Positions 30,469 through 42,133 of a stretch of 64,000 nucleotides of DNA are shown here, one piece after another. Below the pieces are notes generated by a model. The model was not told the origin of the DNA and did no database searches. It was given only the letters and a program-made list of their open reading frames with translations. The DNA is taken from assembly GCA_009914755.4 (NCBI GenBank), contig CP068257.2:19616001-19680000 (forward strand). Reading direction: 5' to 3'. This DNA comes from the human T2T-CHM13v2.0 reference genome, Homo sapiens. Each line of letters starts with the position of its first letter. Positions within the stretch are counted from its first letter, which is position 1. Position numbers and translations under genes: made by a program.

Positions 30469-30543
30469 CTCTTCTTCAAGTGACAATTTCACTTAGCAAA
30501 GTAGAGCTTAGTGTTGGAGAATCTAAATTCTTCACATGTACAG
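30469..30543 (+). CDS. NCAM2: NCAM2 coding exon 2 (signal-peptide end and start of Ig1). The exon starts in the middle of a codon and the next codon begins on its last base. Translation: (A)[24 protein letters not shown].
   Basis: The acceptor is ttttttttcag|ct after a long polypyrimidine tract. The donor is g|gtacgt. The in-frame translation matches the human NCAM2 N-terminus as I recall it (…[30 protein letters not shown]…). The reading phase joins correctly with the exon at 34084. Confidence 0.85.
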
Positions 30544-30662
30544 GTACGTATTTCTGTAAATACCTTCAGATAACGTGGTTTCTGTTAAAATATTAATAAA
30601 ATGTGTTGGCTAAATTTAACTAGTTAAAAACTCAGTTCTCTAACAATAACATCTTACAGTTG

Positions 30663-30982
30663 GTTTTTTGTTTTTGTTTTTGTTGTTTTTGAGACAGAGC
30701 CTCGCTCTGTCTCCCAGACTGGAGGGCGGTAGTGTGATCTCGGCTCACTGCAATCTCCCCCTCCTGGGTTCAAGCCGTTCTCCTGCCTCAGCCTCTTCAG
30801 TAGCTGGACTACAGGTGCTCACCACCATGCCTGGCTAATTTTTGTCTTTTTGTGTTTTTGTAGTAGAGACGGGGTTTCACCATGTTGGCCAGGCTGGTCT
30901 CAAACTTCTGACCTCAAGTGATCCGCCCGCCTTGGCCTCCTGAAGTGCTGGGATTACAGGTGTGAGCCATCATACCTGGCCA
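30663..30982 (-). mobile_element. Alu in antisense orientation, located 120 bp downstream of NCAM2 exon 2.
   Basis: The sequence runs gttttttgtttttgtttttgttgtttttgagacagagcctcgctctgtctcccagactggag…gctgggattacaggtgtgagccatcatacctggcc. Confidence 0.95.
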
Positions 30983-38190: not shown

Positions 38191-41100
38191 AAGTGAATGA
38201 ATAAAATATATGGCTATATATTAGATTCTTAATAAATGACATGTATCGCTCTCATTCCTTCTCTATGAGTTTTTAAATCTTGGAATCAGTTTTGCTAAAA
38301 TTACATGTGTTTAGGTTATATCTAGAACCAGAAAATCCAATGTAGAAGAAATGGGTATAGTTTAACGTGAAACATAACACTAAGTTGTGTGGCAGGTGAA
38401 AAATAAAAATAAAATAAAATCATATTTTTAACTATAGAATTTAAAGTATTCAAGTAAATTATCAGGAAGGACACACTTTTCTAACCTTGAAATAGTGTAG
38501 AAACTTATCACATAAATCATTATTGAACAATTTGTACATTTATAATAGACTTATATGAAATAATATTATTCACTGCTTATACCTCATATAGTCCTTTATT
38601 AAAGCTGATGAAATAAGATCAAGATTACAATTATGTATGAGGATTTAGAATAATGCCACGGACCCAGATATATTTATTTTGCCATAATCTGATTCAAAAG
38701 TAAAATATAGATATTCCAGAGGAAATAATGAAAGCTTGGAAATGCTCATCTTATTAGCTATGCTTTTGATTGTAGCTGCGTGGCAGATATTCAGAATTAA
38801 ACTTCCTGCAGAAAAGCAGTGGAGATTTTCCATGTTGCTCATAGAAAGGAGATCCGTATGCTAAAGGATCCAAGCATTGTGGGAGTAAAGGTGACATTTT
38901 ATTATACAAGTTGAATATCTGTCATCGTGATGGAGGGATATGCTATTTGCTGATATCCATTCAATCTTGGCCAGTTTGGAAATTCTCTCTTAAACTTTTT
39001 AAATGCTTTGGCCAACACCTAATTGATATACTCCTTCTGCATTAAAAAAACTGATTAAAATTACCTTGTTCAATACAATTTTTATATAACCTACTTCTAG
39101 TATAAAAGATTAATTCAACAATTATGGAATACACAGGATCTATGCTGTAGTGTACCAGATGATTATGATTCATGGTAAGCAAGATAAGTTCACTGCCTTC
39201 AAAATACTAAGAATCTAGAGGGAAAGATAAATAGGTAAATCAGTGTGAGAACAAGACACATTGAGTCTATGATAACGAAATTGTGGTAATAAAGGATGAT
39301 AAAATAAATGTAAACTACGTAGGATAAGAGAGAGTGTCAAAGATGCCTGCCAGGAGGAAAAAGTTACCTTTAAATATACACACGTATTAGCCAGGCAAAC
39401 GTCGGTGCGGAATTTTCAGGAAGAGGGAAGACCATGTGCAATGGCCCAGAGGTGAAAAGCAGCATGAAAGCATATTTCTGAAACTGGAATAAGTTTATTA
39501 TTACTAGAACTTATTAATAAGTGCAACTTAGATACTTTTACAAATGAGTAAATCTAACTAGGATTTTTAAACAAAGGACTAATAAGAAAGGAAGCTGAAG
39601 AAGGAGGTCAAACCAAGTCAGCACAGCCTTGATATCTGCTACTACGGAGTTTGTAATTTATTCAAAGGGGGCATCATTAAAGGGATTTAATCAATGCAGT
39701 GACATAAGCTAATATACAGTTGAGAAGAATATTTGTATGTCAGTGAAAACAACAAATTAGATGGGAGTCAAGGCAAAACTCCTGAGACTCAGAATAGTTC
39801 AGGTCCTAATGAAATATTGCTGAGGGAGAAGAAGACTTAAATTAAATAACGATAAACAGAGAAGTGATGAGACATGGAGTCTGATTGGGTCTGCAGACTC
39901 AGAGAGATGAAGATGTCAAGAATGACTCGTGGAATTTGCCTTCCATGGAGTTCCATCACTTATGGAATATTCCTTTGGCAACTAGTTCCATGTAAAGGCA
40001 TGTGAAGACAGAACTGGAGAATGCCAGGTGATAAATTTCAGGTGGAGATGTTGAGCTAAATTTTAAATATATTTTTCCTAATTCACATTAAATATAATCA
40101 GTAAAAATCATTATAGGTGAAGGATGATAGGTATTTTAGAAAGTTAGAAAATGCAGTAATACAATGATCTAAGTATGATAGTGTTCCTCTTCATTTTAAA
40201 TTTTATTTATTTATAATTGCCTCTCATCTAAATTTCTGAACACACACTTTAAGAGAGGATTTTTAATTGACTTTGAAACTTTATGAAGTTTCAGGAGTTT
40301 CTGGTTATTTCAGGACCACTTATGAGTTATCTTCTAACATTTCTTGTGGATTGGTTTTCTTTCTCCCCAGTCTTTCTTTTGATGAGGGCATTTCATGTTT
40401 GTGCTTTAATTTACCAGGGGAAAGAATCTGAATAAACATTTTTGTCTCTCTTCTTAGGTTCAACCTAAGGAAAAAGTGAGCATTATGGAAAAGTTTACAC
40501 CTCATGGGCTGCAAATCATGTGGCCGTAGCATTAGAATCACTATTTTCACTTTGGGGGAGCCTCTGAATCTGTGCATTTTCACCCCTGATTAGTTACCTC
40601 TTAAACAAAAAGCAACTACAGGCTTGTCCGTTTAATGAGTATCTATGCCCTGATGACTCTTCTATTTGTTATTTCTAGCCCCGACTTCTCCCCTCTCATT
40701 AAGGAACGGCTATGACAAATTTGCCCCCAAATTGGAGTGGCCTACTACCCTAGCAGTTTATGGCTCACTCATGCAAAGTCCAGTTGGCAGCAGAGGTATA
40801 GGCAGGATCCTACCATATCCTTTCCACGATCAGGCTGATGGAGACTCTGCCTTTTTCACATGTGGCTTCAAGTGGTTTTCCTAACCTCATTATCAAGCCA
40901 ACAGATAGGGAAAAAAGCAGTACACATTGGAACAGGCCCAAAGAGTAAACAATAGACTGTAGATATGTTAGAGGCTGGGTACCTTAAAATAATCACCTTT
41001 CTACCTGATCAAAAATCCCAAAGGGATAGAGGCGGGGTGTCTCTTATTCATCAAAGTGTCTTATATACAGTATCCAGCAAACAGATAATAGTCAATGAGA

Positions 41101-41995
41101 TCTATGGATGTGTTAATTAAGGAAATTTTAGATATTGCCTGTACAAAGAGTTTCAAAATTGGACTATATGTAAAAGCATTCTTTGAATGATAAGGAGAGA
41201 AAAGGTTTTAGCATGGCAGCAAGATTGAGATGCTTATAAAATCAGGGCAGACACAAAAAATAATGCCAGGCTGAGATGCTGCTTAGGTGTCACAGATTAC
41301 TGTAGCAGATTACTTTACACAATCAGTGAATGCAGGCTGTATACCAGCTTATTTTTTTATATATGCATGTGCACACACACACACACACACAAATGGAATC
41401 TTGAAATAAAATAACAAAATCTAATCTATTTATTCCTAATACAGATTATCTTATTAGCCAAAAAAATCCCTTGAATAAATTTGAGATATAATCTTTTTTA
41501 TATCCTTTATATGACTTGAATATTATTATATCATTTAGTTGCCTCCACAGAGACGCAAAATTTTTTGTTTAATTATTGTATGAAGAAGGATGTTCAATAA
41601 ATTTTCTAGCCCTTTTCCACCCATGTTGCCGCATATTTGCAGTCAAAAGTTTGCACATCTGTGATACCTAATCTCTCTGCATTGTTCTTTTGTGTATCAT
41701 TTCTGCATCCAAAGTACCAAGGGGAAATAATAGCCTAACCATTTTATGTGGATATAAAGTCTTGAATGTATTTTATTTTATTCTTTTAGGAAAAAAAAAA
41801 AGGTGTAACAAAGCAGTGTAGAGTGGAAAAATTGAAGTCATGAAATTACATTTTACTTTCAAATTTGAATTTGTTTGCTGATGAAAAGCTTGATAGTGTC
41901 AGACAGTGCCATATTTTAACTCTTAACAATTTAGAGCACTCTGGACTTAGCCTTCAATTACTGATACCATTTTCTCCCCTTTGCTTTCTTTCCAG

Positions 41996-42133
41996 ATCGG
42001 TTCGCTATGTTAGCAAACAATAACCTGCAGATTCTCAACATCAATAAAAGTGATGAAGGTATATACAGATGTGAAGGAAGAGTGGAGGCCAGGGGAGAAA
42101 TTGACTTCCGTGATATCATTGTTATTGTTAATG
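41996..42133 (+). CDS. NCAM2: NCAM2 coding exon 5 (second half of Ig2). Translation: (N)[45 protein letters not shown](V).
   Basis: The acceptor is ctttctttccag|at and the donor is g|gtaagc. It has the YRC motif of an Ig domain and matches NCAM2 residues about 162-208 from memory. The reading phase is continuous with exon 4. Confidence 0.85.

What the first reader, a model, noticed from the sequence alone, without database searches (positions are those of the whole stretch)
30469..42133. Four consecutive NCAM2 coding exons (exons 2-5) encode Ig1 and most of Ig2, with correct phase linkage and GT-AG boundaries.
The exons at 30469-30543, 34084-34290, 36159-36302 and 41996-42133 join in frame. 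They read [189 protein letters not shown]. The joined sequence has the Ig hallmarks W and Y-R-C twice. The splitting of each Ig domain across two exons mirrors the known NCAM1 gene structure. Exon 1 and exon 6 are not in the window.
Basis: partly seen in the sequence, partly recalled or inferred. Interest (0 to 1): 0.55.

Follow-up and report, generated by a model that had tools for sequence, protein, structure and literature searches.

The report
NCAM2 exons 2-5 (Ig1 and Ig2)
This stretch holds four ordinary, already well-known coding exons of the neural cell adhesion gene NCAM2 in a primate (most likely human) genome; together they encode the protein's first two immunoglobulin domains, and nothing about them is unusual.

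Summary
Four + strand exons (30469-30543, 34084-34290, 36159-36302, 41996-42133; 75/207/144/138 nt) each have an AG acceptor behind a polypyrimidine tract and a GT donor. All flanking introns are phase 1, and the exons join into one open frame. The 187-residue product is 187/187 identical to the crystallised NCAM2 Ig1-2 and Ig1-3 chains (2XY2, 2WIM; 431 bits against 207 for NCAM1). The hamster NCAM2 locus has the same exon lengths and splice sites, with 50 synonymous against 7 non-synonymous codon changes, so these are live exons under purifying selection. There are two small corrections. Exons 4 and 5 encode all of Ig2, not "most" of it. Eight Alu elements show a primate genome, but human cannot be separated from other apes with these tools. 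Verdict: already known, correctly read, low interest.

The parts
1..30468 (+). 3' part of NCAM2 intron 1 (exon 1 is not in the window). Contains Alu and L1 remnants and a conserved non-coding element at about 20040-20200.
   Evidence: No match to the signal-peptide probe (recalled from memory) anywhere in the window. Repeats. Conserved element.
30469..30543 (+). NCAM2 exon 2, 75 nt. Encodes (A)[24 protein letters not shown], the N-terminal part of Ig1 up to and including the first disulphide Cys. Phase-1 introns on both sides.
   Evidence: ttttttttcag|CTCTT...ACAG|gtacgt. Identical length and splice sites in hamster, 73/75 nt identical. Homologous to a 75-nt exon of sterlet NCAM1.
30544..34083 (+). 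Intron 2 (3540 nt, phase 1). An antisense Alu lies at 30691-30969. The last ~825 nt are alignable with hamster (69%).
34084..34290 (+). NCAM2 exon 3, 207 nt. Encodes [14 protein letters not shown]...[23 protein letters not shown](Q), the rest of Ig1 including the core Trp and the second Cys.
   Evidence: ctctttgcag|CGATT...TTACC|gtaagt. Hamster exon of the same length, 87% nt identity. The Ig1-only crystal chain 2VAJ aligns to product residues 2-94, which is exons 2+3.
34291..36158 (+). Intron 3 (1868 nt, phase 1), lying between the Ig1 and Ig2 coding units.
36159..36302 (+). NCAM2 exon 4, 144 nt. Encodes [47 protein letters not shown](N), the first half of Ig2 with the first Cys and the core Trp. 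The donor is the weaker GTTAGT.
   Evidence: ttgatacag|AAAAA...GACA|gttagt. Same length in hamster, with the donor hexamer and six further bases identical.
36303..41995 (+). Intron 4 (5693 nt, phase 1). Holds a conserved non-coding block at 36872-37294, and ~525 nt of conserved sequence directly upstream of exon 5.
41996..42133 (+). NCAM2 exon 5, 138 nt. Encodes [45 protein letters not shown](V), the second half of Ig2 with the second Cys. It completes Ig2.
   Evidence: ctttctttccag|ATCGG...TAATG|gtaagc. Hamster exon of the same length. The Ig2 part of chain 2V5T aligns to product residues 96-187.
42134..64000 (+). 5' part of intron 5, at least 21.9 kb (exon 6 is not in the window). Contains L1 and Alu remnants.
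   Evidence: No hit to the Ig3 sequence other than weak paralogous echoes on exons 3 and 4. Repeats.

Best explanation
The interval holds four constitutive coding exons of the NCAM2 (OCAM/RNCAM) gene in a primate, most likely human, genome. Counting the signal-peptide exon as 1, they are exons 2-5. After removal of three phase-1 GT-AG introns (3540, 1868 and 5693 nt), they encode the complete first and second I-set immunoglobulin domains of the ectodomain, with two exons per domain. In the mature protein this Ig1-Ig2 module sits at the membrane-distal tip, and Ig1 makes the homophilic cis and trans contacts that underlie NCAM2-mediated adhesion. Shown here: the boundaries, phases and reading frame; identity with the crystallised protein; orthologous conservation; purifying selection; and shared architecture with NCAM1. 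Inferred from the literature, not tested here: the adhesion function, the exon numbering, the chromosomal position 21q21.1, and actual splicing in vivo.
For: All four exons have AG/GT boundaries, lengths that are multiples of 3, and join into a single open frame. The product is 187/187 identical to PDB NCAM2 chains 2WIM and 2XY2 (E 2.3e-129). NCAM1 chain 1QZ1 scores only 207 bits. Pfam finds I-set with two matched stretches, E 3.4e-35. All named homologues across vertebrates are NCAM2. The hamster NCAM2 locus has exons of the same length with the same splice sites. It shows 50 synonymous against 7 non-synonymous codon differences, and differences by codon position are 11/1/51. Sterlet NCAM1 exons are 75/207/144/138 nt with phase-1 introns at homologous codons. 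Eight Alu elements and an AT-rich (~33% GC), L1-rich context fit a primate gene-poor region. The review PMC8471948 places human NCAM2 at 21q21.1, describes five Ig plus two FnIII domains, and reports homophilic bonds through the first Ig domain.
Against: Nothing contradicts it. There are limits. No vertebrate genome or transcript database was available, so the exon numbering, the chromosomal location and the species (human or another ape) are not verified. No expression or junction-read data were examined. The PDB table gives no organism; that 2WIM and 2XY2 are human NCAM2 rests on my own knowledge of Kulahin et al. 2011.
Confidence: 0.97

Rival explanations
1. The same four NCAM2 exons, but from a non-human catarrhine primate (for example chimpanzee or gorilla) rather than human.
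For: The only species evidence is 187/187 protein identity to the crystallised chains and the presence of Alu elements, including one 95% identical to an AluY-like probe. Both would also be expected in great apes.
Against: The match to the crystallised NCAM2 is perfect, and that protein is human by my own knowledge. Nothing points away from human. No test was possible with the collections on offer.
Confidence: 0.15
2. A non-functional copy of NCAM2: a processed pseudogene, a duplicated fragment or a decaying unitary pseudogene.
For: None found. It is considered only because a single window cannot show the rest of the gene.
Against: Introns are present, so it is not a processed copy. There are no stops or frameshifts in 187 codons. 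All eight splice sites are intact. The pattern of 50 synonymous to 7 non-synonymous changes with a third-position excess against hamster shows purifying selection on this lineage pair. Flanking intronic blocks are collinear with the hamster locus.
Confidence: 0.01
3. The exons belong to the paralogue NCAM1 or to another IgSF adhesion gene, not NCAM2.
For: The Ig1-2 fold, the exon lengths and the intron phases are shared with NCAM1. Many IgSF proteins score significantly.
Against: Identity to NCAM2 is 100% against about 47% to NCAM1 (87/187 to sterlet NCAM1). NCAM1 chain 1QZ1 scores 207 bits against 431 for NCAM2. All named database homologues are NCAM2.
Confidence: 0.005

Closest known systems
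Human NCAM2 (OCAM/RNCAM), Ig1-Ig2 module; PDB 2XY2, 2WIM, 2VAJ, 2V5T
   Same: The spliced product is identical at all 187 residues. The Ig1-2 crystal construct matches the product of these four exons to within one residue at each end.
   Different: Nothing detectable at the protein level. The organism of the PDB entries and the genomic coordinates could not be checked with these tools.
Chinese hamster NCAM2 locus (GCA_000448345.1, KE674278.1; L001)
   Same: Exon lengths of 75/207/144/138 nt, the same AG/GT sites, the same phases, 96% protein identity, and collinear conserved intronic blocks.
   Different: Intron lengths differ (2840/879/7548 against 3540/1868/5693). There are 7 amino-acid replacements. 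The hamster gene model's first and last coding pieces look mispredicted.
NCAM1 gene (sterlet locus L002; rat NCAM1 Ig1-3, PDB 1QZ1)
   Same: Two exons per Ig domain, exon lengths of 75/207/144/138 nt in sterlet, all introns in phase 1, and split codons at homologous positions: FxCT[x], I[FY][Q]KLTF, D[x]RF. The classical NCAM1 literature places VASE between exons 7 and 8, where it alters an Ig-domain loop (PMC2116347 abstract). That this is Ig4, and that it fits two exons per Ig when numbering starts at exon 0, is my own knowledge.
   Different: Only about 47% amino-acid identity. Rat NCAM1 carries small insertions in Ig1 relative to NCAM2. NCAM1 is polysialylated, whereas polysialylation has not been reported for NCAM2 (PMC8471948).

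Membership tests
NCAM2 orthologue group | Sequence closer to NCAM2 than to the paralogue NCAM1 | tested here: met
   431 bits and 187/187 identity to NCAM2 chains, against 207 bits to NCAM1 1QZ1. All named homologues are NCAM2.
NCAM2 orthologue group | Exon-intron structure shared with an accepted NCAM2 orthologue, with coding sequence under purifying selection | tested here: met
   Hamster locus: identical exon lengths and splice sites, 50 synonymous against 7 non-synonymous codon changes, differences by codon position 11/1/51.
NCAM2 orthologue group | Remainder of the architecture: signal peptide, Ig3-5, two FnIII domains, TM or GPI tail | not testable with these tools
   Exons 1 and 6 onward lie outside the 64-kb window.
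NCAM2 orthologue group | Genomic position at human 21q21.1 and exon numbering as in RefSeq NM_004540 | not testable with these tools
   No vertebrate genome or transcript collection is offered. The location is taken from PMC8471948.
Immunoglobulin superfamily, I-set domains | Two Ig domains, each with a Cys...Trp...Y-x-C core, matching the Pfam I-set model above its gathering score | tested here: met
   PF07679 I-set: E 3.4e-35, 120 bits against a cut-off of 23.7, two matched stretches. FFTC/W/YRC and VVC/W/YRC are present in the product.
NCAM-family gene architecture | Each Ig domain split over two exons, with phase-1 introns between and within domains | tested here: met
   All introns in the window are phase 1. 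Sterlet NCAM1 has the same exon lengths, phases and junction codons.
Functional spliced exons (expressed) | Junction-spanning transcripts | not testable with these tools
   No RNA data are available. Splicing is inferred from the split codons, which form Ala, Gln and Asn only after splicing and then match the crystallised protein.

The most novel reading that the evidence does not exclude
The exons themselves are known. The only less-charted material is non-coding. (1) A ~160-bp TAATTA-rich element in intron 1 (about 20040-20200) is ~87% identical to hamster. (2) A 420-bp block in intron 4 (36872-37294) is 77% identical. (3) Conservation runs unusually far (500-800 nt) upstream of exons 3 and 5. 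(4) Exon 2 is nearly invariant at synonymous sites. One or more of these could be a neuron-specific enhancer or a splicing-regulatory element of NCAM2 that has not been characterised.
Probability: 0.3. Interest if true: 0.15.

Novelty: already known. Interest (0 to 1): 0.05.

Why it matters
It matters only as a quality check. The first-stage reader can recover exact exon boundaries, phases and gene identity of a vertebrate gene from raw sequence. Biologically these exons encode the NCAM2 Ig1-Ig2 module. According to the literature, this module mediates homophilic adhesion in olfactory axon sorting and synapse maintenance, and the gene is discussed in relation to Down syndrome, autism and Alzheimer's disease. 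All of that is established, and nothing new follows from this window.

Tried and rejected
(1) Frame-1 translation of the stated intervals gave stops. I briefly read this as a coordinate error. I dropped that once the phase-1 split codons were seen.

(2) Exon 1 and exon 6 were sought in the window with a signal-peptide probe recalled from memory, the Ig3 sequence from the 2WIM alignment and the rest of the protein. Only chance hits and weak paralogous echoes on exons 3 and 4 appeared.

(3) I asked whether the conserved intronic blocks (19328-20224, 33259-34083, 36872-37294, 41470-41995, 47749-48125) are missed coding exons. Mismatches are flat over the three codon positions, most indels break the frame, and the longest stop-free stretch is 80 aa or less, so I rejected this.

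(4) An Rfam scan of the whole window at gathering thresholds found no RNA family.

(5) The two most distant homologues, P0017 and P0018, were tested as possible NCAM1 proteins. They are fish NCAM2-type, so a separate NCAM1 search was run.

[quoted passage not shown] A search for '2WIM' found nothing.

(7) The frog NCAM1 locus L003 was fetched but never appeared in the sandbox, so it was not analysed.

(8) Pfam on the L1 ORF2-like stop-free pieces gave no hits. Only the ORF1 piece hit Transposase_22.

Full report
**Observation**

Translating the four stated intervals from their first base gives stop-filled sequence. This is only because each exon begins with the last two bases of a split codon. 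A six-frame word search finds all four claimed peptides on the + strand at the stated places. Each interval is bounded by an AG acceptor behind a pyrimidine-rich tract and by a GT donor:
- ttttttttcag|CTCTT...ACAG|gtacgt
- ctctttgcag|CGATT...TACC|gtaagt
- ttgatacag|AAAAA...GACA|gttagt
- ctttccag|ATCGG...AATG|gtaagc

The lengths are 75, 207, 144 and 138 nt, all multiples of three, so every flanking intron is phase 1. The 564-nt concatenate reads without a stop as LLQVTISL...DIIVIVN, 187 complete codons. The codons for Ala25 (G|CG), Gln94 (C|AA) and Asn142 (A|AT) form only after splicing.

The leading Ala shows up in the raw genomic translation only because the acceptor AG supplies a G. The coordinates are therefore exact.

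**Identity**

The spliced product is 187/187 identical to the PDB chains named 'neural cell adhesion molecule 2': 2WIM (Ig1-3, E 2.3e-129, 431 bits) and 2XY2 (Ig1-2, 406 bits). The best NCAM1 chain, 1QZ1, reaches 207 bits. Pfam reports I-set (PF07679) at E 3.4e-35 with two matched stretches. In the 5.8-billion-protein collection every named hit is NCAM2: hamster 96%, cobra 84%, teleosts 65-78%, sharks 67-68%. The two most distant hits also score better against NCAM2 than NCAM1.

**Domain content**

The Ig1-only crystal chain 2VAJ (93 aa) aligns to product residues 2-94, which is exons 2+3. The Ig2 part of 2V5T aligns to residues 96-187, which is exons 4+5. The Ig1-2 construct 2XY2 (189 aa) is covered at residues 2-188. 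The four exons therefore encode the whole of Ig1 and the whole of Ig2. 'Most of Ig2' is a slight understatement.

Within each domain the first disulphide Cys lies in the first exon and the Y-R-C Cys in the second. The core Trp is in exon 3 for Ig1 and in exon 4 for Ig2.

**Are the exons real and functional?**

The hamster NCAM2 locus was retrieved as L001 (GCA_000448345.1). It carries exons of exactly 75, 207, 144 and 138 nt at 12090-12164, 15005-15211, 16091-16234 and 23783-23920, all with AG/GT boundaries. Nucleotide identity is 97, 87, 89 and 87%. Codon differences are 50 synonymous against 7 non-synonymous, and differences by codon position are 11/1/51. That is the signature of purifying selection on a translated frame.

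Outside the exons only a few collinear blocks align between the two species. Together with intact splice sites and the presence of introns, this excludes a processed or decaying pseudogene.

**'Mirrors NCAM1'**

[quoted passage not shown] It also says that the VASE mini-exon lies between exons 7 and 8, where it alters the predicted loop structure of an Ig-like domain (PMC2116347 abstract). From my own knowledge that domain is Ig4, which fits two exons per Ig when numbering starts from exon 0.

I therefore tested the claim directly. The NCAM1 Ig1-2 sequence read from the 1QZ1 alignment was used to find NCAM1 proteins. The sterlet NCAM1 locus was fetched as L002. An exact spliced mapping gives exons at 22409-22483, 23922-24128, 24472-24615 and 25376-25513, which are 75/207/144/138 nt. 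All introns are phase 1, and the split codons fall at homologous residues:
- FTCT[A]IGEP against FLCT[V]TGEA
- LEIY[Q]KLTF against MKIF[Q]KLTF
- TISD[N]RFAM against HKKD[V]RFSV

Ungapped amino-acid identity between the two products is 87/187.

**Context**

No part of exon 1 or exon 6 is in the window. This was tested with a signal-peptide probe recalled from memory, with the Ig3 sequence from 2WIM, and with the rest of the protein. Only weak paralogous echoes on exons 3 and 4 appeared. Intron 5 is therefore longer than 21.9 kb here, against about 11 kb or less in the hamster gene model.

The window is AT-rich, about 26-46% GC and mostly 31-36%. It has no Rfam family at gathering score. It carries eight full-length Alu elements, 83-95% identical to an AluY-like consensus that I supplied from memory, plus several LINE-1 remnants (Pfam Transposase_22 at 9847-10089). 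Alu elements are primate-specific (established knowledge), so the source is a primate. Human is the most likely source, but it cannot be separated from other apes with the collections offered.

The review PMC8471948 places human NCAM2 at 21q21.1 with 25 annotated exons. It describes five Ig and two FnIII domains with TM and GPI isoforms. It states that homophilic cis and trans bonds are made through the first Ig domain, citing Kulahin et al. 2011.

**How it works**

Shown here: three GT-AG phase-1 introns separate four exons, and joining them yields the Ig1-Ig2 module. Inferred from the literature: this membrane-distal module mediates NCAM2 homophilic adhesion. Because every intron here is phase 1 and every exon is a multiple of three, skipping any of these exons would keep the frame. 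This is a general property of IgSF genes, and I have no evidence that such skipping occurs.

**Comparison and novelty**

This is a member of a fully characterised gene. Every defining feature that could be tested in the window was met. The features that could not be tested are the rest of the gene, the chromosomal position, the RefSeq numbering and transcription. The finding is correct and ordinary.

**Side observations**

- Conserved non-coding blocks lie in introns 1 and 4, and long conserved stretches lie upstream of exons 3 and 5. None shows codon periodicity.
- Exon 2 has unusually low synonymous divergence: 2 changed codons in 24, against 48 in 163 elsewhere (binomial P about 0.014).
- The weak GTTAGT donor of exon 4 is conserved in hamster.
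- Alus of opposite orientation lie around exon 2.

None of these was followed far enough to claim a function.

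Noticed in passing
window 20040-20200 (intron 1, about 10 kb upstream of exon 2): A ~160-bp block about 87% identical to hamster (L001 about 2075-2235). It is rich in TAATTA/ATTTAATT motifs and lies at the end of a longer 67%-identical alignment (19328-20224). It shows no codon periodicity. It looks like a conserved non-coding element, possibly an enhancer.
   Followed up: partly
window 36872-37294 (intron 4); also 33259-34083 and 41470-41995: A 420-bp intronic block is 77% identical to hamster. Conservation also extends about 825 nt upstream of exon 3 and about 525 nt upstream of exon 5. Mismatches are flat over codon positions and indels break the frame, so these are non-coding, possibly splicing-regulatory or enhancer sequence.
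   Followed up: partly
window 30469-30543 (exon 2): Exon 2 is 73/75 nt identical to hamster, with only 2 synonymous changes in 24 codons against 48 in 163 codons of exons 3-5 (binomial P about 0.014). This hints at extra constraint on the RNA or DNA, such as a splicing enhancer.
   Followed up: partly
window 36303-36314 (donor of exon 4): The donor is GTTAGT, which has T at +3 and is weaker than consensus. The first 12 intronic bases are identical in hamster. In sterlet NCAM1 the homologous donor is GTAAGA.
   Followed up: no
window about 8400-16700, + strand: A decayed LINE-1 with strong A-over-T skew. Pfam finds the L1 ORF1 domain (Transposase_22) at 9847-10089, and ORF2-like pieces lie at 11-14.3 kb and 15.5-16.7 kb. 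Its 3' part is interrupted by an AT/TG-rich tandem array at 14427-15461 (periods 2, 17 and 37), which produces spurious 140-185-aa 'ORFs'.
   Followed up: partly
window 972-1964 and 51387-53793: Further LINE-1 ORF2 C-terminal remnants in mixed orientations, including intact-looking ORFs at 972-1313 (-) and 51693-52157 (+).
   Followed up: partly
window 5764-6049+, 7323-7571-, 23776-24055+, 25052-25328+, 29268-29530-, 30691-30969-, 54929-55205+, 61247-61528-: Eight full-length Alu elements. The one at 25052-25328 is 95% identical to an AluY-like probe, so it is young. A minus-strand Alu sits 148 bp downstream of exon 2, and plus-strand Alus lie 5-7 kb upstream. That inverted arrangement can favour exon back-splicing, but this was not tested.
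   Followed up: no
L001 10001-12089 and about 34800-34894 (hamster gene model P0001): The hamster protein model starts with MPLPEQLWVSEGPGTEDN instead of a signal peptide and ends in ...RRARKKGYEF inside Ig3. Its first and last coding pieces look like mispredictions, and the putative first exon has no conserved counterpart in the window.
   Followed up: no
L002 17785-20101 vs 22408-24614, and 2998-13013 (sterlet contig SCEB01214772.1): The NCAM1 Ig1-2 exon set appears twice with identical tblastn scores. A third, diverged copy (52-67% identity) lies upstream on the same contig. This could be an assembly duplication, a tandem duplication or a paralogue in the polyploid sturgeon genome.
   Followed up: no
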